From contig NC_090348.1 in assembly GCF_035084215.1 (NCBI RefSeq), forward strand, positions 39,494,001-39,558,000: a stretch of 64,000 nucleotides of DNA, in the 5' to 3' direction. The notes beneath the pieces were generated by a model. It was not told the DNA's origin, searched no databases, and saw only the letters and a list, made by a program, of their open reading frames with translations. Of the stretch, positions 1 through 57,700 are shown piece after piece; the first letter of the stretch is position 1, and each line of letters opens with the position of its first letter. The stretch comes from Heptranchias perlo (taxonomy: Eukaryota). The translations under genes and the position numbers were made by a program.

Positions 1-2694
1 CCTTTCTCAAGAGGTGATTTCCGCCCCAGCCAGAAACAGGTCCAGCTCTCGCTTGAAGGAATTGAAATGCAAATCTCTGGGGGAGAAATAGGTTCAGGCC
101 TGCTTTCGGACCTGAGATGGGTGACGCGGCAGAAACCGTAGGCCCAAGGTTCGTCCCAAGTTTGGCCTTGGGCCTCATCTGAATAATTCCGGCAAGCAGC
201 GGCTGCCAATCGGGCCGTTTACTCATGAAACCATCGAGTGTATCTCCTCCCAGTTCTTTATGTCCGTTACCCAACCTCGAGCCCGGATTCCGTTTTCAAA
301 TCAGCCACCTGTGATTACCATCCCTTTGCCGGTCGGTTGCCGAGTAACGCTAACACCAAGTTAGGCAATCATATCCATCGGTAAAATGGAAACTCCTGGG
401 GATGTTTGGGAGAAAAAAGAACAAACCAAAGAGAAGGCAGAGAGTTAGCTCTCGTCATCAGATGCAAAATCAGAGAAAAGAAAAACGATTTAGACACCAA
501 GCAATTTAGAACTATTTCTCGCTCTTCGGATTTCCTCAACCTGAACATGTTCCACATCATTACTAACACTTGTCATCAGTACCTCCATGTAATACATCAA
601 TGCAGCCGAGATAATGTACTATTTATTATTCTGCACAGTGTGCTTTATATCCTATTCATTTCTTCCTTCTGTAAGATCTAATCAAACCTTAAAATATATG
701 TAAAGAATTAACCCTCCCACAACCAAGGAGGGGTTCCTATGTTTAAATCTGCAGAAGATCGGGATCGTTTGAGGGATGCTGGCGACCTTTAGTGCTGTTT
801 TCACCCCTCTCTCCTACAAAAGATGGTTTGCTTCCCTTCCCCTGCGCCGCCATATATTTTGTCTTTTCTTGAGTGCTCCCCAAGGCCCTTGTGCTGATTC
901 GAATGCCATCGGAGGGGCAGACTAGCACAAGAGCACCTTATTAAGTTGTTCTCAGAACTCCAAATTCATTACTCGAGAACTTGAACCTGCCCCAGAAAGT
1001 GCTGCATGATGGAGAAACCTAATTTACGACAAAAAAAACCTATGAATATTTTTATCTTGTTGTCTGCAGTTTTGGAATGTGTCATAGTTTTCTCGGGGGT
1101 TATCTGTGTTATTCTCTCGTTTGTCTTAAGAGACACATTTTTCATTTTCTCGCTCCACCTATTTCTTTCCTCCCTCCTCCTCTCCCAACATCCAAGTCAA
1201 GATTGGTGATTGAAGGCCGTGGTACCTGATCTCAACTGGGCCAATGGGTGTGGGGTGCGACAATTGGCCTATGAACTCTGCTCTGCGGCGGGGGGTGGGG
1301 GGAGATGGGAGGGTGGAAATCAGCTGGGGTCCCTGATTCTGGTTGCTATCCAGTGATTTTTGCTGGAAGGTGTGCGTCAGGTGAGATCAGGATGCCCAGC
1401 ATTCACCATTAAAGCTCATCCGTAGAACCGTATCCCAGCAGGAATTAGCACTTCAGCTTATTGCAAATGTATGCTCCCTTTACACTACAGGTATTGCAAA
1501 GAGAGAAAAAAAAGGATGAATTCCCTATCAGCAATGAATGATAGGAAACCCTCGCAGTCAACCCGAATTCCTTGGCTTGTGAAGCAGACATGCTATTTAA
1601 CATTCAGCGGTATTTTCTTAATCCTAATTTTTCTCCTCACTGGTTTTAGGAGTCACTTATCCACTAAGAATATCCCTTAATCTGAGATGGGCTGAATTAC
1701 GAATGTTTCCATGAGCACTGTCAATATTTGTGCTCGGGTGGAGTATAAAAACCAGCACAGACCTTTTGGGCCAAATGGCCTGTTTCTGTGCTGTAAGTTC
1801 TATGTATGTTGCTTATTGCAAATATATGCTCCCGACAGGTATTGCAAAGAGAGAGAACTTGCATTTATATAGCACCTTTTCACATCCATCTGAAGTGTCC
1901 CAAAGCACTTCAGATACAATGAATTATTTTGAAGCGCGCTCATTGTCAGTAAACGTGGCAGCCATTTTGCACGCAACCATGACCCACAAGCGGCAGTAAA
2001 GTAAATAACGAGTTACTCTTGTCTTTAAGGACCGAGCACTCTTGCCCCTGAAGGCAGTGAAACTCTCCTTGAGTGGAGGCAGAACTGATAGGAAAAAGTC
2101 ACTGGCAACAGCACTTGCCATCAGATTGGCCATCTAAGATCCAGCGACGGATCCATATAAGCTATCTCTGTGGGCATCAGGGAGGTTCCCCGGCAGCATG
2201 ACAAAATCAGAGGCGCGATTTGCACGAGCGACGCGTGCACAGTATAAACAGGGAAATTCTGCACCAATGGGAGTTGACTTAAATGCTTGTAGAACTACTT
2301 CTGATTCCAATGGAGCAGTTGTTTAACATGAAAGGGTCGTAAGATGTCTTCCATCAAGCTATCCCCTCCCCCCCTTCCCCTCCCGCTTCAGTGGTGGAGT
2401 TTCCTGCCATACACTAGAGGCCTGGCTGAGAACTGAGAAAACTCAGAGCAGCTGCATTTGAATGACAGGCAGTTCTGGGGCTTGAACTCGCAACCATCTG
2501 TTCAGGAAGTAAGTACTATAACAGCGTCCAGCCCTTACAGGACTACGCTGTACTGACACTTCAGAAGATCTACCCCTTTGCGGATAGCAGGCCTTGTTAC
2601 CTTAGCACTCTGTGGAGTTCAGATCCTTGGAGATGACGCCAACAACCTACCTTTATGTAGCCCTGCCATTTTATACTGGAGTCTGCCGTTTGAA

Positions 2695-3167
2695 AGAAGA
2701 AAGACTTGCATTTATATAATGCCATTCATGATCTCAGGATGTCCGAAAGCACTTTACAGCCAATGAAGTACTTTATTTTTGAAGTGGAGTCACTCTTGTA
2801 ATGTAGGAAATGCAGCAGTCAATTTGCACACAGCCAGGTCCCACAAACAGCAATGTGATAATGACACAATCATCTGTTTTAGTGATGTTGATTGAGGGAT
2901 ACGTATTGGCCAGGACGCCGGGGAGAACTCCCTTGCTCTTTTTCGGATAGTGCCATCGGACCTCTTGCGACGACCTGAGAGGTCAGATGGGGCCCCGGTT
3001 TAACACCTCGTCCGAGAGACGGCATCTCCGACAGTGCAGCACTGCCTCAGAACCGCACTGGGAGCATCGGCCTAGATTTTGCGCTCGAGTCTCTCGGGTG
3101 GGGACCTGAACGCACAAACGTTCTGACTGAGAAGCGACCGTGTTACCGACTGAGCCACGGCTGACAC
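2695..3167 (-). mobile_element. Full-length tRNA-derived Deu-type SINE (SacSINE1-like) with L2-like tail
   Basis: Minus-strand head TGTCAGCCGTGGCTCAGTCGGTAACAC..GTTCAGGTCCC (A/B boxes), a central domain shared by many copies in the window, and tail TATATAAATGCAAGTCTTTCTT. Confidence 0.8.
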
Positions 3168-3659
3168 AACTTGCAATAGGCTCATTAGGGGACGATTGCA
3201 TACGTGGGCACTGTGCTAGTGTGTGGGTGGGAAACTCGCATCACTTTTCACTGCATGCTGTTACATGTAACCAATGCAGCTGGTGACACAGCACAAGAAG
3301 CAGGTAATCCACGAGCCACTTGTGATGCCCATCAGAGCTCTCCAGAGACCACAGTGTTTACATTTGAATACATCATCTGGTTGGAGAACTTTGTGTCTGT
3401 GGTTGACATGTGTAGGCCTCGTTTCTATTTGCATTGTAGGAGGCTGGCATCTGTGACCCTGCTTCCTTATCCTAGCCGTCTGCCGTCGTGATAAGGGAGC
3501 TGGATTTAAAAGAAAGAGCTTGCATTTATAGAGCACTTTTCACCACCTCAGCATATCCCAAAGCGCTTTACAGCCAATGAAGTATTCTTTTGAAGTGTCG
3601 TCATGGTTGTAATGTAGGAATTGTAATTTTGGTGCTTAAATGGTGAGGGCGGGGGGGTT

Positions 3660-32880: not shown

Positions 32881-34440
32881 TAATAAAACTTGTTTATAGT
32901 ACATAGCTGTTAATATTAATTTATGGTATGTGATGGGTAGTGACATACCTTTACAGTGCTTGTTGACTTTCATTTGTGGTGTATGAATAGTACGAATATT
33001 TATTTGCAGTAATCGGCCAGTATCCATGTTTACATACAAGGGCCGATTTTAATTCCTGGCAGGAATGGACGGGAGTCTTCGTTGGAGGCCAGCCCTCATT
33101 TGAATGCTGCCGGTCAGCTGCTCGATGAGATGTTGCCGGCAGCAAGGCAAGTGCAGGAGCGGAGGTGTTGCGAGGGTCTCGTGACTGGGGGACGGGGGGC
33201 TGGGTGAGGAAAACCTAGGGCAGCGGAGACCCGGACTTTCCTTGTGGGGTCCTGCTCCTCCTGGCCCCTCACAGGAAAGTTTCTTTCAACTTACCTTAGA
33301 GGGTCTCACTGTTTTCCCGACAGCTTCACCTGGAGGGTGAGGAGAGGTGGGGGGGGCCGCCGCTCAGGAGCGTGTTAAACTATCACCGAGGTCTCATGTA
33401 CGTCATGGAACCGCGATTTCCATTTATTAATGAAGCACCTGTCAGAGTCTGTGGGGGGGGGTGCCTCATCTGCTGCTAAAACCAGCTGCATTAAAATTAT
33501 GCATCATCAGGAATGGAGCCGTTCCATTTTAACTGCTTCCCCGTTGTAGAATGCATGTACAAGCACAGGAATAATACTTGTTCACATGATGTCGCTCGTG
33601 CCCTCAACTACAGCACATGGATAGTGTAATTCTCATTTCTAGGATATAAGTACTGCCAGTGTTTACTCCATGTGGCTAATGTTGTTTATATTATAGGGTT
33701 AGTTGCAAATTCTTGTTTACATTATTTATAGATAGTAACGATATTTATCATATCTGTTTCTAAGTACTCCACATTGTGTATTTCTTTACTAGAGTGCAGT
33801 GACTTGTTACGTAGACAGACTGATGGAGCTGAATAACCAGTTAATCTGTTTCTGGTGATGCTGATTGAGGAAGGAACGTTGGCCAAGACACTGGGAAAGC
33901 TCCTAAACTGCTTTGAATGGGGTGATGGGATTTTCGGTGACTTCTGTTCAATGTCTAATCTGAAGTTGTCAAACTAGTTCATGAACTTAAGCCCTGCTTG
34001 GGATTTGAACCCATAATCTTCTGACCTGGAGGTAGAGTGCTACCAACTGAGCCAAGCTGACGTTGTGTGTATTAATGGCCACTTACAATGTATGGGGAGG
34101 ATTAAGGGAGCCTGTATTGAAAAACTATATGAACAGCCAGTGTGAATTCTAGTCAAAGAATGGAATCAAAGGAGGAAGTAACACTATTGCTGGTACCATC
34201 AGTAACTAATACTAACCCATAGAATATCCTTCCCATGTTTTTTTTAAGTTTGAGTTTAAAACGTGAGTCCTGCTTGCTCTCAGGAGCATTGAAGGTGGTG
34301 TACATGGTCTCTGATTATGGTTTGTTTTTTTCCATCCAGTGTCTGCCAAGTATGAGCAGAAATTAAAACTACCTCTGTTGATAGATACTTTTGTTTGGTA
34401 ATTAGCTGCACATTTTGCTTTCCCTTCAACTTCTGTCTTA

Positions 34441-35614
34441 AATTTTTTGAGGCGATAACAAAGAGGGTTGATGAGGGTAGCATGTTTGATGTAGTCTACA
34501 TGGATTTTAGCGAGGCTTTTGGCAAGGTCCCACATGGTAGACTGGTCAGAAACATAAAAGCCCATGGGATCCAAGGGAGAGTGGCAAGTTGGATCCAAAA
34601 TTGGCTCAGTGACACAAAGGTTGTTTCCAGTGGGGTTCCGCAGGGCTCAGTACTTGGTCCCTTGCTTTTTGTGCTATATATCAATGATTTCGACTTAATC
34701 ATGTCTCCTACATTTAAGAGATTTGCAGATGATACAAAAATTGGCTGTGTGGTTGTTAGTGAGGAAGAAAGCTGTAGACTGCAGGAAGATATCAATGGAC
34801 TGGTCAGGTGGGCAGAAAAGTGGCAAATGGAATTCAATCCAGAGAAGTGTGAGGTAATGCATTTGGGGAGGGCAAACAAGGCAAGGGAGTACACAATAAA
34901 TGGGAGGATACTGAGAAGTGTAGAGGAACAGAGGGACCTTGGAGTGCATGTCAACAGATCCCTGAAGGTAGCAGGACAGGTAGATAAAGTGGTTGAGAAG
35001 GCATACGGGATACTTTCCTTTATTAGCCGAGGCATAGAATACAAGAGCAGGGAAGTTATGCTAGAACTGTATAAAACACTAGTTAGGCCACAGCTGGAGT
35101 ACTGCGTACAGTTCTGGTCACCGCATTACAGGAAAGATGTGATTGCACTTGAGAGGGTGCAGAGGAGATTTACGAGGATGTTGCCAGGACTGGAGAATTT
35201 TAGCTATGAAAAAAAACTAGATAGGCTGGGGTTGTTTACTTTGGAACAGAGGAGGCTGAAGGAAGATTTAATTAAGGTGTATAAAATTATGAGGGGCCTA
35301 GATAGAGTGGGTAGGAAGGACCTATTTCCCTTAGCAGAGAGGTCAATAACCAGGGAGCATAGATTTAAAGTAATTGGTAGAAGGATTAGAGGGGAGCTGA
35401 GAATTTTTTTTCACCCAGAGTGTAGTGGTGGGGGCCTGGAACTCACTGCCTGAAAGGATGGTAGAGGCATTTATAAAGTACTTGGATATGCACTTAAAGT
35501 GCTACGGGCCAAGAGCTGGGAAAGTGGGGTTCGGCTGCTTAGCTCTTTTTCGGCCGGCACAGACACAATGGGCCGAATGGCCTCCTTTTGTGCCATAAAT
35601 TTCTATGATTCTAT
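34441..35614 (+). mobile_element. Young 5'-truncated CR1 LINE with open RT frame
   Basis: ORF 34395-35453 contains VYMDFS.AF.KVPH, SGVPQGSVLGPLLF, FADDTK, WAEKWQMEFN and LVRPQLEYCVQFWSP; CR1 tail TTCTATGATTCTA. Confidence 0.95.
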
Positions 35615-50189: not shown

Positions 50190-50617
50190 GTAAGATAGAG
50201 CAGGCTGGGGCTCTTTTCTCTAGAAAAGAGAAGGCTGAGGAGTGACCTGATAGAGGTCTTTAAGTTTATGAAAGGGCTTGAAAGGGTAGACATAATGTTT
50301 CCCCTTATAGGGGGGACTAGAACTAAGAGCCATAAATATAAGATAGTCACTAATAAATCCAGTAGGGAATTCAGGAGAAACTTCTTTACCCAGAGAGTGG
50401 TTAGAATGTGGAACTTGCTACCACATGGAGTAGTTGAGGCGACGACCATAGGTGCATTTAAGGGGAAGCTAGATAAACATGTGAGGGAGAAAGGAATGGA
50501 AGGATATGCTGATAGGGTTGGATGAAGAAGGGTGGGAGGAGGCTCATGTGGCGCGTAAATACCGGCATAGACCAGTTGGGCCGAATGGCCTGTTTCTGTG
50601 CTGTACATTCTATGTAA
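50190..50617 (+). mobile_element. CR1 3' fragment
   Basis: RRNFFTQRVVRMWNLLP motif; tail CATTCTATGTAA. A shorter copy lies at 53270-53500. Confidence 0.9.
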
Positions 50618-50940: not shown

Positions 50941-52088
50941 TGAACACCTACAGACGCTGAAAGACGCCCTAGTAAGAACGGGATATGACGCTCGACTCAT
51001 CGGTCGACAGTTCCGACGGGCCACAGCAAAAAATCGCATAGACCTCCTCAGGAGACTAACACGGGACGCAACCAACAGAGTACCCTTTGTCGTCCAGTAC
51101 TTCCCCGGAGCGGAGAAACTACGCCATGTTCTCCGCAGCCTTCAACATGTCATCAATGAGGACAAACACCTCGCTATGGCCATCCCCACACCTCCACTAC
51201 TCGCCTTTAAACAGCCACCCAACCTCAAACAGACCATCGTTCGCAGCAAACTACCTAGCTTTCAAGAGAACAGCGTCCACGACGCCACACAACCCTGCCA
51301 CGGTAACCTCTGCAAGACATGCCAGATCATCGACACAGATACCACCATCACACGAGATGACACCACCCACCAGGTGCATGGTTCATACTCCTGTGACTCA
51401 GCCAACGTTGTCTACCTCATACGTTGCAGGAAAGGATGCCCCAGAGCATGGTACATTGGCGAGACCATGCAGACGCTGCGACAACGGATGAACGGACACC
51501 GCGCAACAATCGCCAAACAGGAGGGTTCCCTCCCAGTCGGGGAACACTTCAGCAGTCATGGACATTCATCCACCGACCTTCGGGTAAGCGTACTCCAAGG
51601 CGGCCTTCGAGACACACGACAACGCAAAATCGTCGAGCAGAAATTGATAGCCAAGTTCCGCACCCATGAGGACGGCCTCAACCGGGATCTTGGGTTCATG
51701 TCACGCTACACGTTACCCCACCAGCGAACAAATGTTATCTGTTTTTAATATAATGGGTCATTTGCTGGCTCTCTCTGCCTTCCGGATGTTTCTGCCTCTC
51801 TCTGTGTTTTTTTTTCTCTGTTTTTTTTCCCTGTTTGTTTTTTTATTGAATGTGTATTCGGAGGTTCTGCAGGTAACACCTCTCTGTCTGAACACGGTGA
51901 TTGCCTTGGCAACGGGCAGTTGCAGGGGCAGTCTGTAAACACCATTTATTATTGTTCAATATGTATAAATGCGTAGGCTTCAAGGAGATCTTGAAACATT
52001 TGCCTGAGGAAGGAGAAAATCTCCGAAAGCTTGTGAATTTAAAATAAAATTGCTGGACTATAACTTGGTGTTGTAAAATTGTTTACAA
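50941..52088 (+). mobile_element. 5'-truncated Penelope-like retroelement (end of RT + GIY-YIG endonuclease + pseudo-LTR)
   Basis: Open frame to the stop at 51748 with L..TGY, C..C linker, SCDSANVVYLIRCRKGC..WYIGET..LRQRMNGH..VGEHF..H..E..LI..DGLN, typical of PLE GIY-YIG domains, followed by a terminus with a hammerhead-like core. Confidence 0.93.
51998..52038 (+). ncRNA. Minimal type-I hammerhead ribozyme-like motif of the Penelope element
   Basis: CUGAGGA (52004-52010), stem II GGAGA-aaa-UCUCC, GAAA, palindromic AAGCUU in place of stem III, and a wobble-containing stem I AUUUGC/GUGAAU. Confidence 0.65.
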
Positions 52089-52170
52089 ATCTCTCCACAG
52101 ATGCTGCCTGAGCTGCTGAGTGTTCCCAGCATTTTCTGTTCCTAGTTCAGATTTCCAGTATTTTGCTTTT
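52089..52170 (+). mobile_element. Fragment of another PLE-like terminal repeat
   Basis: ACAGATGCTGCCTGAGCTGCTGAGTGTTCCCAGCATTTT, a motif I recognise as a common shark repeat; a diverged copy lies at ~47985-48040. Confidence 0.5.
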
Positions 52171-54491
52171 ATTATATGATGCAAAACTCACCCAGGCGAT
52201 GGAGATTATTAATATATGTCAATTGCCTATACTTACAATCTGAAATACAAATCCAAGAAAGCCAGATCTTTTTTGATTCGACATTGTTGAAGTTGTTTGC
52301 ATTTGTGGATTCCCTTTGTCTCTCGGCTGTCACTGAAAGATGAAATTCAAAGTGAAACAGCTTTGACTGTCTGGGAAATTGTTGCATTCTTCCCAATGTC
52401 TGATGACTGTCAAGAAAGAATAGGTTTTTTAAAAAGGGGAATAGAATGTAGATTAATGGACGTATATAGATGGAATATTGAGCGTCGTTCAGGAACCTTT
52501 ATTACAGGAAGGATGTAGCTGAGCTGGAAAAGGTGCAGAGAAGAGTTACTAGAATGATGAGGAGACTAGAGGGAAATAAGGTGCTCAGAAGGTTTCACCT
52601 CACCTGAAACTTTTCATCATGGACTCAGGATCCAAAGTTACTGAAGGGAACTGATAAGATTTACAGCTTTTAATGTTTTGGAATAGAAAGTTAAGTGAAG
52701 TAATCTAATCTATTCAATCTGCTGCCTTACTCTTGTCAAATTTTTCTTCTTAATAAACATGAATTATTTGCTGTTAGTCTGTTTAAAGTCTGTTCGTGTG
52801 GTGTTTTCAGTCAGTCGGAGGGATCAGGAGTGTACGGTGGTATCCCACAGTATTTCCAGTACATATCCCCATGGTAAAAGGGCTCATTGTTCATCTGGAG
52901 GCTACCCTGAATGCTTTTACATACGAGGTCAGGTTTTCATTCATCAGAAGCGCATACTTGCCTATGGAAGTTGACCTTTGCATTGAGCATGTGTACAAAG
53001 TATCTGGAGATAATCTGACTCATGACGACCCATATTATACCTGAGCTGAAACTGCTTGATGCTCCCCCGGATGTGAAATTCAGGACAATGTTCCATTCTT
53101 GAAGTAAAGGGAATGTGAGCTCAGCGTCGAGCAATCTCACGTCATTTGAAGAGTCATCGACCTCCAGAAGTTAATGTTGCAATGGGTTCATGGCTGTAAA
53201 TGCACAAGAGCACAGAAGAGACATTTGAGACCTTCAAATATAGAATAAAATAGCCAGGTACGGCTATATTGGTTGGAATGTGGAACTCGCTACCACAAGG
53301 AGTAGTTGAGGCGGCTGGCATAGTTGCATTTAAGCGGAAGCTAGATAAACTCATGAGGGAGAAAGGAATAGAAGGATGTGCTGATGGGGTTAGATAAAGT
53401 AGGGAGGGAGGAGGCTCGTGTGGAGCATAAACACTGACATGGACCAGTTGGGCTGAATGGCCTGTTTTTGTGCTGTACATTTTATGTAATTCTATGTAAT
53501 ATATTCTTGTTTTTTTGTTAGTGGACGGCAAGATATTGGAGCATTGCTCAGAAAAAATTCTTATAGTCAACCCTCTCTCATTTGAAATAATACTTCAATG
53601 TATCATCACACTCTTGATGTATATGGGGAACTGATTGATACGAAGAGGCACACGATAAGTTTCAAAGAGCCAACAGCATGTTGACTGTTTTGCAATTCCA
53701 TTCACTGTCGGTCACATGTTACTGCAGACGAGTAATCCGTGTTGAAGTCATTTAGATTGGAATCCCCACTTTAAGAGGTAAATCCTTTCATGTTTCCCCC
53801 CTTTTGATCTGTCGGATTCTTTCTTCTTTGATATCGCAAGTGGCTGCTGCCACTGAAACAGCAGCATGTCTTTGTCAGATTTCTCTTTCCTTTGTATCAC
53901 GGTAAAGAGTCACGTAGGTAAACTGGTAGTCATGAACCAGGCACTGAGAGTATCAAGACTATGCAGTGTCCTTTGGAAGGGCTGATATTCTTGTAGTCTG
54001 CCGGAGCTTTCAAATTCTCAGAGGTCTTCCTGTTAAGATGATAAAGCCGTTATCCTTATCATTGGGTGCTCACTTACTTTCTCAAAGGAGGGAGCTCAGA
54101 GGCTTCAAAAGCTCCATCCTGCCGCAAGCAGAAAAAGAAAGGAGGAATCTTTCCTTCAAAGCAACAAAACACAGTGTGCAGCGTTAGTTTTACATAGGAA
54201 ATAGAGATTGAAGGTGGTAGTAGATATTATACAAGTTATCTGGCCAGTGATGTTGCTACTGGGTGAAATACTCTACAAATACCAGATTATCCTGAATTCC
54301 CTGCATGTCCTGTTGTGCTTCATTCATGTTGTAATCCTTTCTATGCCAACCTGGCCAAAACTAGATAATATGCCAATTCCCACAGAAAATAATAATGGAT
54401 CCTGGAATTATTTTGGAGTAAACAGCAATAAATACAAGTTTTTATTTAATCAGTTCCCCACGCCCCCCCCTCACCATTGTTATAATATTAG

Positions 54492-54711
54492 AATTGTAAA
54501 CAATTTTACAACACCAAGTTATAGTCCAGCAATTTTATTTTAAATTCACAAGCTTTCGGAGATTTTCTCCTTCCTCAGGCAAACGTTTGCCTGAGGAAGG
54601 AGAAAATCTCCGAAAGCTTGTGAATTTAAAATAAAATTGCTGGACTATAACTTGGTGTTGTAAAATTGTTTACAATTGTCAACCCCAGTCCATCACCGGC
54701 ATCTCCACATC
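54492..54711. mobile_element. Penelope terminus inserted as a 186-bp perfect palindrome plus 34-nt tail
   Basis: Arms 54492-54584 and 54585-54677 are reverse complements and match 51999-52088. The insert is flanked by the direct repeat ATAATATTAGAA (54482-54493, 54712-54723). Confidence 0.9.
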
Positions 54712-57700
54712 ATAATATTAGAAAGCATAGAACGAGAAGTCCTTTTGGCCCATCGAGTTCATTTGTTCCACAAGTCTTGTCCGGATCCATTTGAATGTGG
54801 ACTCTGTCCAACCCATCCCACTTCCGAATGAAAATTTCTGTAGAGTATTCCACTTGTATGGCAGATTTGTCACATAGGTCCATTCAGGGGGCCCCACGTG
54901 TTTGCTGATCAGCTCGCCTTCTCAGGCTTTTGCCTTCGCCGCAAAAGACCTTCTCCAATTGTCCATCGCCAATAAAGTCCAACACTGGTGAAGGCACGGA
55001 GAGCTGACACGCTTGCGGTGCACAAATTGGCTGCTGCCTTTCCCTACTTTACAACAGTGACTGCACTTTAATAAATACTTCATTGGCCGAAAAGCACTTT
55101 GGGGCATCCTGAGGGCGTGGAAGATGATATATAAATGACAATTCTTTCTTTTCAGCCGAGATTGTGAACTCAAGTCCCTCAACCCTCTGAATTTTTGATT
55201 CTCGGGTAAGAGTGCTACCACTGAGCCAAGCACAGAAAAGGTAGTTGAGTTATTTGGAATCCAATGCAACACCACCTACATAGGTGAGTGCCCCAAACTG
55301 CAAGCTGCTGTTTCCGAAAGCCTATCCGTTAGCAGTAGTTCAGTGATAGCTGTTGGCATGATGCCTTGCATTCAATTTTGGGACAATACCAGGGAAGACA
55401 ATGGAAATGTTAACATATTCATCCTTTACCGCTTGCAACTGCCAAAGCTCACGAAACAAAGAGTCGAGAAAGAGAAAAAATCTGCTACCCTTGCAATCAA
55501 TTTGTTTCACTCCAGCACGCAGTTGGCTAAATGGGAAAAGGGTCTGAAACATTGAAATCAGATTGCTGTGTACTGTACTCCAGCATCACCATACAAACAA
55601 AATCAGCATGTTGGCTACCAAAATAAAATATTTATGTATATACTGCAAGAGCACAGGAGCTGAACTAAAACCTGAGGGATTTGCAGTCCCAGAAAGCAGG
55701 ATTTTATTTATCTGTCCTGTTGCTCTTTTGCCTTATTGTGATCTTTGGTTGTGCATTTTCTGAAAGTGTTCATTAGTGAATGGGCACCCACCCACGCACC
55801 GTTTATAATGAAATACAGCTTTTTGAGTTAGATTGTTGTTTTAAATATGATTTTGAGTTTCAGCTCAAATAGAAGAGTGGCTGCAAATCTGTGGAGATTG
55901 TGGCCACTGCAAACATTATAGGGATTTTGGTTTTGTTTAACTTGGACCAAACACATGGACCATAATGGTCTTTTCTGGTCCTATGTTCCTATGTAACTAA
56001 AGCTGCTGTACTGCACTTGTGTAGCATTGAATACTGACAGGCTCAAGCCTATGATTCCTGCCATGCGTTGGGTTCCTGATCTTGTTCCAGCTGTTTACTT
56101 TATGTGCCAAGTCAAGTGAGGTGTTTCCTGACAGGTAAAAGTTTCTCTGGTTGCTATGCAGAGCAAAGTTGTCAATGCATGACGATTTACTCTGATTGCC
56201 AGAAGTTTGCATTAGAAATAGTGAACACAGGAAATCTTGTCGTGTTCACAATGCTGCTTCACACATAGTGACCAGAGGAAATCTTCATCGAGGGAGGGAG
56301 GGAGGGAGAGAGAGTCAACCTGCACCATTCCTTGCAGCTGGTTGAGAGCAGCAATGGGCGAGGGGCCAGTGGAAATGAAACCATCTCCTCTCTTGTTAGG
56401 TGAGGGGACATAACATGAGGAGAGGGAGGGGGTAAATACAGAAGAACATTTCATTTTTACTTATCTGACCTCAAGCACCAAAGTAGAATACAAAAGTGAG
56501 CTAATACTACCAGTTTGGTTGGTTGGTTTAATTGGAAGAGCATGTCAGATTTCATGTAAAATGGCAGACTACTATATTTTAGAGCAAATTCCAAGGTCAA
56601 AAGTTTCCCTTGAACTATTGATTTCAAAGATGCAGCATTACCCTGTTTGTGTTTCAGAAGAGATTCTTGTGTAAACACATGACCAATTAAAGGAGTGTTA
56701 GGAATAGCAGTCAAAATAAGGTCACCATTCACGTCAACACAATCAAATAGAGTATGAATGGGAAAAGGCCACTCAGCTCATCTTACTCACCCTGTCACTT
56801 CAGTGCATGGTCAGGGAAAAGATAGCCTTCATTAAAAAAAAACATGGACAAAGCCATGGAGGAGCCGGGAACTGAGCGGGTGGGTAGATTATTGCGTGTG
56901 AATCCCGGAATCTGCGATCGCAACTCAATTGAAGGCAATTGATTTTACTTCCAGGATTCCCGCGCAATAGCTGGCCAAATTGACAGGCCGGCTGCCTGTC
57001 GGGAGAGAAAGCAGCCAGGGAGCGGATGCCAAGTAAATCTGAGATCGCGGGGGGAGTCTCGGGGTGAATGTTGGTTTATTGGGATTTTTTTGATATTTCT
57101 GGTCGTTACTTTTTCCAGAATTCAAGATCGCAACTTGGTATTTGAACTCATGACTAGTGGATTGCTAGTCCAGGACCGCGACCCCTATTTTACCATACTC
57201 GTAGAAAAATCGAGAGGGTGGCAGAAAGTGTAATAAAATGAGGTTCTGGACAGCTACTGAATAACTCTGCTTGTAGTGAGTTCTCAATCTGTGTTTTTGC
57301 AGCAAACTATGTAACTCATTTGGTTGATGCTAATTCATGCACAGCCTCGAACAAAAAAACCTGCTGTTTAACTGTGCATTTGATCTAGATTTGGAGGAAA
57401 AAGAGTTGCCTGATCTCTAGGTTTCAGTTGGGGAAATATTACAAGGAAATAAAATGAAAATTTAGTGCCATGCAATTTGATGTAGATTTCTGACCAAAAA
57501 AAAATGCTAGGTGTCCATGAAGTTTATATTGGATTCAGAATTCTGCTTTGCTCAGATAAGCAAACAGTGTTGAAAAAGACACTACAGTGGAACTTCTGTT
57601 ATCTGCACTCCAATTAGCTGCCAGCCCAATTATTGACCAGAATTCTCATGGACAAACATGAAATGTTAGATTATTGTGCAGCCTGCTCATATTTATTTAG

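What the first reader, a model, noticed from the sequence alone, without database searches (positions are those of the whole stretch)
54482..54723. 186-bp spacer-less perfect palindrome of the Penelope ribozyme terminus with 12-bp TSD, 2.5 kb from a sense-strand partner hammerhead
Seen: 93-bp arms meeting at GGCAAAC|GTTTGCC, a 34-nt tail (54678-54711) absent from the 52088 copy, and TSD ATAATATTAGAA. The hammerhead core is present on both strands. Established: Penelope insertions often have inverted pseudo-LTRs and a short tail, and long perfect palindromes are unstable. Inference: a very recent, ORF-less mini-element. In the pre-mRNA it would form a 93-bp dsRNA hairpin (ADAR/Dicer substrate) that sequesters its own ribozyme, and its antisense arm could also pair with the hammerhead at 52.0 kb. 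Two same-strand minimal hammerheads in one intron could alternatively form a dimer in cis, giving a possible fold-dependent RNA switch.
Basis: partly seen in the sequence, partly recalled or inferred. Interest (0 to 1): 0.7.

Follow-up and report, generated by a model that had tools for sequence, protein, structure and literature searches.

The report
Twin-primed Penelope stub, mismatch-repaired centre
This 186-base mirror-image sequence is one of at least 431 stubs with the same centre left by a young Penelope-type jumping gene; each was likely built on the spot from two short DNA copies of the start of the element's RNA joined head to head, so it likely records how these elements insert and is probably not a working RNA switch.

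Summary
The palindrome, tail and 12-bp TSD are real. It is the commonest fixed-centre short product of a young Penelope family whose 3,082-bp parent has an intact 902-aa ORF. At least 431 copies share the centre, with separate flanks and TSDs where checked.

Centre letters, tail to the right: TG about 168, CA 196, CG 35, TA 0. The parent reads CA. One arm ends at the pLTR end and the other at the tail end. Both arms carry the same subfamily variants. Arms pile up at AAACATTT, 30 nt below TATAAAT, even in one-armed copies.

Best reading (0.7): both nicked target strands prime on one RNA at two internal sites, run to its 5' end and join with two T:G mismatches. Repair to C:G would give this perfect class; a rare G-variant parent is a rival. 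Contig ends suggest this copy is heterozygous.

No host gene was found, the 52.0-kb copy is a chance neighbour, and folding energies argue against an in-cis dimer.

The parts
54482..54493 (.). Left target-site duplication ATAATATTAGAA (last 2 nt shared with the arm)
   Evidence: left unique contig of X1 and X3 ends at 54493
54492..54584 (-). Tail-less arm: pLTR from the centre out to the pLTR end (RT start site 1, inferred); sense on the - strand
   Evidence: matches the parent unit
54581..54588 (.). Centre AAACGTTT (parent AAACATTT); predicted 5' end of the parent RNA and junction of the two cDNAs; CG class, 35 copies
54585..54677 (+). Tail-bearing arm: pLTR in sense
54585..54625 (+). Minimal type I hammerhead motif, predicted cut after 54619; masked in the hairpin
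   Evidence: sequence; fold; no Rfam hit
54544..54584 (-). Mirror copy of the hammerhead motif
   Evidence: 100% complementary arms
54678..54711 (+). 34-nt tail, the stretch between the pLTR end and the parent ATG (its end is RT start site 2, inferred)
   Evidence: parent unit reads tail-ATG-ORF
54712..54723 (.). Right target-site duplication
   Evidence: right unique contig starts at 54712
50941..52088 (+). Separate 5'-truncated, tail-less arm of the same parent family (unit 2046-3190, 99.3%): ORF C-terminus, 3' UTR, pLTR with hammerhead motif at 51998-52038; no TSD or partner arm seen
51964..51970 (+). TATAAAT, 30 nt above AAACATTT (51994); shows the promoter-like context that the stubs lack
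   Evidence: sequence; same context in the parent unit

Best explanation
This is an ORF-less, TSD-flanked insertion of the leader of a young Penelope-like retrotransposon, likely made anew at this site when both nicked target strands primed reverse transcription on one element RNA and the two short cDNAs joined head to head. Inferred steps: (1) the parent is transcribed from about AAACATTT, 30 nt below TATAAAT; (2) the protein cuts both strands about 12 nt apart; (3) one 3' end primes at the pLTR end and the other 34 nt further on at the tail end; (4) both cDNAs run off the RNA 5' end as ...GGCAAATGTTT; (5) these ends pair with each other (or snap back first), leaving two adjacent T:G mismatches; (6) replication or strand-wise repair fixes TG or CA, and T-to-C excision repair on both strands fixes CG, the perfect class seen here. 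The stub has no TATA box and is probably a dead end whose ribozyme is masked.
For: Shown: 34 CG and 397 TG/CA centres. With the tail to the right: 196 CA or TA (100 of 100 listed CA), 202 TG or CG (16 of 100 listed CG), TA 0; TG against CA is compatible with 1:1 (p 0.16). The parent reads CA in 100 of 100 listed of 2,843. 73 of 79 centres examined have an 8-16-bp TSD and no arm runs past 140 nt; 35 of 35 CG copies have their own flanks and TSD. 94 of 100 unselected arms end at one of two 3' points. In 18 of 20 long pairs one arm ends at each point, none has two tails, and the tail-less arm reaches more than 50 nt further 5' in 6, so it is not a copy of the other cDNA. The two arms share loop variants in 8 of 8 stubs and recurrent variants at 38 of 38 sites in 24 long pairs; their 5' ends lie within 20 nt in 7 of 24. 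35 of 100 arms end 0-7 nt above TTTGCC, 21 at exactly 5-6 nt, including four one-armed copies; 44 are spread over the next 3 kb. A sister family without a palindrome there piles up at the same place with variable centres. CG occurs on variant backgrounds in 4 of 35, like TG/CA in 27 of 184 (p 0.79). In vitro, the anole PLE protein cuts and extends both strands, starts at two internal sites that define the tail, and is modelled as a dimer (PMC11167929).
Against: No RNA 5'-end data. A 6-bp hairpin directly above AAACATTT could be an RT stop instead of a transcription start. 0 of the 4 sampled arms longer than one unit stop at the predicted start. The modelled duplex of two AAATGTTT ends is weak (-2.7 against -8.4 kcal/mol for CG). 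Four complex copies (L051, L058, L059, L063) show extension past AAATGTTT before joining, which fits snap-back. Eight G-bearing arms exist outside exact centres; four are parent-type and one (L146) heads an intact 902-aa ORF, so some or all CG stubs could come from a G-variant RNA. Shared variants could also reflect one active source locus per cell rather than one RNA molecule. One-armed copies exist, so twin priming is not obligatory.
Confidence: 0.7

Rival explanations
1. One cDNA snaps back on its own AAATGTTT end and copies itself; the second arm is that copy.
For: L051, L058, L059 and L063 show 20-50 nt of extension past AAATGTTT. Identical arms follow directly. Self-priming was proposed for rotifer PLE palindromes (PMC3846280 passages).
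Against: Snap-back of the tail-bearing cDNA alone gives only CA, yet TG is about as common. The tail-less arm ends at a fixed site and is often the longer arm. One-armed tail-less copies with TSD-like flanks exist.
Confidence: 0.12
2. The overall route is as in the best explanation, but the perfect CG class comes from a rare parent whose leader reads AAACGTTT, with no mismatch repair.
For: L146 is an internal G-pLTR followed by an intact ORF, and three more parent-type G copies and four short G arms exist. Perfect ends pair much better. TA = 0 needs no repair bias in this case.
Against: CG is 35 of about 432 exact centres, but only 8 G arms lie outside them among 8,715 arms. All 8 have loop AAAAT, while 4 of 35 CG stubs carry GAAAT or GAAGT. 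One-armed to two-armed short products are 1:38 for G against 4:15 for A (p 0.036; hand-counted, tested).
Confidence: 0.3
3. A self-replicating non-autonomous hairpin family copied from one or a few master stubs.
For: At least 431 near-identical copies with one centre and TSDs; the stubs keep both inferred RT start sites.
Against: At least eight centre-by-subfamily combinations would each need a master. Decay of a CG master by CpG deamination would need about 92% loss at the centre, while the arm's other CpG is changed in 2 of 200 listed. Centres form a continuum: 1,474 loci within 0-30 nt spacing, of which 15 of the first 50 are exact, and 402 more around AAGCTT/AATT. The stubs lack the TATA box.
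Confidence: 0.07
4. A fold-dependent RNA switch with the 52.0-kb hammerhead in a host intron.
For: The antisense arm can pair with the 52.0-kb copy about as strongly as with its own arm (-154 against -151 kcal/mol). Minimal PLE hammerheads are thought to act as dimers (PMC4209133 passages).
Against: Either pairing masks one of the two sense ribozymes, so the -22 kcal/mol dimer cannot compete. About 4 of 431 stubs would have such a neighbour by chance, and L086 is another case. The insertion is likely heterozygous.
Confidence: 0.02

Closest known systems
Endonuclease-bearing Penelope-like element insertions with inverted pLTR, 30-40-bp tail and TSD (Adineta vaga Pen2a/Pen2/Pen3a, PMC3846280 passages; PMC8557442 passages)
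   Same: Head-to-head inverted pLTR, tail on one side only, TSD, palindrome at the junction, 5' truncation.
   Different: Here the whole insertion is leader only (218 bp, no ORF), occurs in at least 431 copies with one centre, and shows a TG/CA/CG/no-TA pattern. The passages I read explain such junctions by self-priming on an antisense template or by endonuclease resolution, not by priming from both strands.
Poseidon of Anolis carolinensis in vitro (PMC11167929, parts 1-2 of 4 read)
   Same: Cuts and extends both strands, two internal RT start sites bounding the tail, AT-rich targets, hammerhead not needed for insertion, predicted dimer.
   Different: There the start sites lie inside the ORF; here both lie just above the ATG. 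The parts I read do not link the two sites to inverted arms or describe leader-only stubs.
LINE-1 twin priming (recalled, no call)
   Same: Both target strands prime on one RNA, giving an inversion with microhomology at the junction.
   Different: L1 arms cover different RNA stretches and the second priming site is set by microhomology. Here both arms cover the same stretch from two fixed sites, so the product is a palindrome.
Non-LTR retrozymes (bioRxiv 10.64898/2026.07.22.740005, part 1 of 5 read)
   Same: ORF-less, pLTR-related, type I hammerhead.
   Different: Retrozymes are direct tandem repeats with two or more same-strand ribozymes; this is a single inverted pair.

Membership tests
EN+ Penelope-like element insertion | Derives from a single-ORF element with reverse transcriptase | tested here: met
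   Parent 902-aa ORF with RVT_1, E 3.3e-10; arms match its pLTR at 99%
EN+ Penelope-like element insertion | C-terminal GIY-YIG endonuclease in the parent | tested here: inconclusive
   A VVY...YIGET...R motif (recalled as GIY-YIG-like) is visible near the C-terminus, but Pfam gave no GIY-YIG hit at E up to 0.1 and the PDB search gave 0
EN+ Penelope-like element insertion | Tandem units forming pLTRs | tested here: met
   3,082-bp tandem units in L096, L097, L112
EN+ Penelope-like element insertion | Inverted 5' copy and one-sided 30-40-bp tail | tested here: met
EN+ Penelope-like element insertion | Target-site duplication | tested here: met
   12 bp here; 73 of 79 centres, 35 of 35 CG copies
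EN+ Penelope-like element insertion | Minimal type I hammerhead in the pLTR | tested here: met
   Core, helix I 6 bp, helix II 5 bp, palindromic AAGCTT at helix III; matches the description in PMC4209133; no Rfam hit
EN+ Penelope-like element insertion | RT phylogeny within the Penelope/Poseidon clade | not tested
   No tree was built
Active hammerhead ribozyme | Self-cleavage | not testable with these tools
   Predicted to be masked by the hairpin
Self-replicating non-autonomous PLE family | Descent from one or few master copies with a fixed structure | tested here: not met
   Three centre states on three backgrounds and a continuum of centres
Non-LTR retrozyme | Direct tandem repeats with two or more same-strand hammerheads | tested here: not met
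   Single inverted pair

The most novel reading that the evidence does not exclude
Penelope-like elements integrate by obligate-style twin priming: a dimer primes both staggered nicks at two fixed sites 34 nt apart on one RNA, and the leader stubs are frozen intermediates whose centre letters (TG and CA about equal, CG about 8%, TA none) record a tandem T:G heteroduplex and its base-excision repair in the germ line. This would explain the inverted pLTR and one-sided tail of the whole class and map the RNA start from genome sequence alone.
Probability: 0.5. Interest if true: 0.62.

Novelty: new variant of a known kind. Interest (0 to 1): 0.4.

Why it matters
How Penelope-like elements make their inverted, tailed insertions is stated to be undefined in PMC8557442 (passages). 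This family gives hundreds of near-identical natural products with a built-in strand marker, which turns the question into direct tests with the existing in vitro system (PMC11167929). It also shows a steady source of long spacer-less palindromes in a 3.25-Gb animal genome, some likely still segregating. The locus itself has no sign of host function.

Tried and rejected
Rfam: 0 matches.

Host gene: Pfam on 50 window frames gave one passing hit, an RT at 34356-35450; 148 further frames from the window and 40 kb of neighbouring DNA gave 0 (these came from 431 non-repeat candidates of 55 aa or more, so not all were scanned and short exons can be missed).

Reads: no RNA holder was listed with certainty. 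Runs X5-X8 are guessed RNA, contigs only; they showed repeats and no splice joint in the rows shown, which is no evidence on expression. X9 (another organism) covered nothing useful. The empty-site joint itself was not among the listed rows.

PDB sequence search: 0. The script returned nothing (missing coordinates) and was redone. In one search the L097 pair was mis-picked (an older neighbouring fragment, 8 of the 14 discordant sites); I kept it in the printed totals and rely on the recurrent-variant count.

My first count of a G-bearing parent (1) was too narrow; and 67 found four.

Rejected: CpG decay from a CG master (see rivals); hyper-editing as the source of CG (no extra A-to-G in 35 CG copies); hammerhead cleavage as the source of the centre (the cut lies about 35 nt further 3'); a splice acceptor at the centre (no AG there); assembly polishing as the source of CG (would give TA equally; argument only).

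Literature searches that found no description of twin priming or leader-only palindromes in PLEs. The library lacks most subscription papers, and I did not read supplements; Figs S1-S2 of PMC11167929 may bear on this.
Full report
Observation. The palindrome is as described: arms 54492-54584 and 54585-54677, 93 nt, fully complementary, no spacer. A 34-nt tail and a 12-bp TSD complete a 218-bp insert. A minimal hammerhead motif lies in each arm; Rfam reports nothing.

Parent. The window lies at G000:C27:39494001-39558000 in a 3.25-Gb genome. The arms are the pLTR of a 3,082-bp tandem unit with an intact 902-aa ORF that carries an RT domain. In the unit the order is TATAAAT, 30 nt, AAACATTT, hammerhead, pLTR end, 34-nt tail, ATG. 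The 52.0-kb copy is a separate tail-less arm, 1,148 bp at 99.3%. A 26-nt core pattern finds 8,715 arms.

Family of stubs. Exact patterns give 34 loci with the perfect CG centre and 397 with TG or CA; one more CG copy has a changed arm. With the tail anchored on the right, 196 are CA or TA (100 of 100 listed CA) and 202 are TG or CG (16 of 100 listed CG). TA is 0. So TG is about 168, CA 196, CG 35. Of 79 centres examined, 73 have an 8-16-bp TSD; the other six rows are complex centres whose outer ends the script did not reach. No arm exceeds 140 nt. All 35 CG copies have their own flanks and TSD.

The centre is a mode, not a constant. 1,474 loci have centres within 0-30 nt spacing. Of the first 50, 15 are the exact centre, 6 a one-base-slipped form, 4 centre on AGATCT and about 12 belong to a sister family. 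Another 402 centre around AAGCTT or AATT.

Two priming events. Of 100 arms listed in order on contig C1, 94 end at one of two 3' points, the pLTR end or the tail end (six of these arms are three duplicates of one insertion). Among 20 long pairs, chosen as pairs, 18 have one arm at each point, two have a shortened tail-less arm, and none has two tails. The tail-less arm reaches more than 50 nt further 5' in 6, so it cannot be a copy of the tailed cDNA. PMC11167929 (parts 1-2 of 4) reports that an anole PLE protein cuts and extends both strands and starts at two internal sites bounding the tail.

One template. Loop variants are shared by both arms in 8 of 8 variant stubs. Recurrent variants agree at 38 of 38 sites in 24 long pairs; discordance is 0.08% within loci against 0.43% between loci, and the two 5' ends lie within 20 nt in 7 of 24. 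One RNA molecule is the simplest reading; one active source locus per cell would also fit.

A fixed 5' end. In the same 100 arms, 35 end 0-7 nt above TTTGCC, 21 of them at exactly 5-6 nt, none at 4, 7 or 8; 44 are spread over the next 3 kb. Four one-armed copies (L185, L189, L200, L203) stop at (G)AAACATTT, so the end does not depend on pairing. In the sister family about half of 30 arms stop within 7 nt of the matching place, where there is no palindrome and centres vary (the pattern forces arms to reach this place). TATA spacing suggests a transcription start. A 6-bp hairpin just upstream is an alternative RT stop, and 0 of 4 arms longer than a unit stop there. I put the start-site reading at about 0.6.

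The centre letters. Two cDNAs ending GGCAAATGTTT pair over 8 nt with two adjacent T:G mismatches (sequence logic; modelled -2.7 kcal/mol). Either strand winning gives TG or CA, seen at about 1:1 (p 0.16). Excision of T opposite G gives CG and never TA. MBD4 excises T from G:T (start of abstract of PMC3458566); the passages of PMC4856981 mention T-G mispairs as BER and MMR substrates but do not test this tandem case. Against this, eight G-bearing arms exist outside exact centres, and L146 is a G-leader before an intact ORF. All eight have loop AAAAT, whereas 4 of 35 CG stubs are on variant backgrounds, the same share as TG/CA (27 of 184). I favour repair at about 0.65 over a G-parent at about 0.3. 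Complex copies show that ends can also be extended before joining; snap-back followed by invasion would end in the same heteroduplex.

Age of this copy. In DNA runs X1 and X3 (one sample, possibly the assembly's source) the unique contigs end at 54493 and start at 54712. A k=31 graph simulation gives exactly these ends if an empty allele is present and 54517/54687 if not. The empty joint was not listed and k=31 is my assumption, so heterozygosity is inferred.

The switch idea. No host gene was found, by a test that can miss short exons. The hairpin (-151 kcal/mol) or the pairing with the 52.0-kb copy (-154) always masks one sense ribozyme; the dimer scores -22. About 4 such neighbours are expected by chance among 431 stubs.

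Relation to known work. The anatomy is that of known EN+ PLE insertions (PMC3846280 and PMC8557442, passages). My searches found no paper on twin priming or leader-only palindromes in PLEs. Earlier unchecked notes of this scan reach the same twin-primed reading at other loci of this genome; I had recorded my reading before seeing them. A look-up for the heteroduplex-repair pattern found none. Those notes call the genome a shark's; I did not test that.

Verdict. Real, very young, a variant of a known insertion type. The locus is ordinary; the set is a useful record of mechanism. Interest 0.4.

Noticed in passing
L146 / L233-L234 (G000:C8:78754738): Internal pLTR with AAACGTTT followed by an intact 902-aa ORF; its outer pLTRs read A. 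Candidate source of G-leader RNA. Three more parent-type G copies (L235, L239, L241) share a GAGCTC variant.
   Followed up: partly
L051, L055, L058, L059, L063; G000:C1:15341358: Complex centres: 20-50 nt of extension past AAATGTTT, then a second join by microhomology; L058 has two centres 74 bp apart.
   Followed up: partly
L155-L184: Sister Penelope family (1,031 pattern matches) with the same tail, TTAAAAT upstream, and arm ends piling up at TTTCC; a third family fragment in L163 has TATAAAT 30 nt above ACATTC.
   Followed up: partly
L096, L113: Near full-length arms whose 5' end falls at unit position 106, the upstream copy of the pLTR end, as if RT stopped where the other primer site lies.
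   Followed up: no
L073, L086, L092, L207: Four of 100 arms end 38-41 nt above TTTGCC, just upstream of TATAAAT: a second, minor end point.
   Followed up: no
G000:C9:85944945-85953203; G000:C1:15341346-15372206: Stubs multiplied as parts of local tandem or segmental duplications (four and three copies).
   Followed up: no
window 52089-52175: The 52.0-kb arm abuts what looks like the end of another repeat family (recalled as a different Penelope-type terminus); no TSD or partner arm seen, possibly a target deletion.
   Followed up: no
window 34356-35450 +: 365-aa frame with an RT domain (RVT_1, E 5e-22), a LINE-type or similar fragment.
   Followed up: no
window 50398-50617 and 53270-53489: Two 220-nt copies (87%) of a common high-copy repeat end.
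   Followed up: no
L232:5315-6845 -: Overlapping open frames of 400-467 aa with no Pfam hit for the one scanned, probably a simple or tandem repeat.
   Followed up: no
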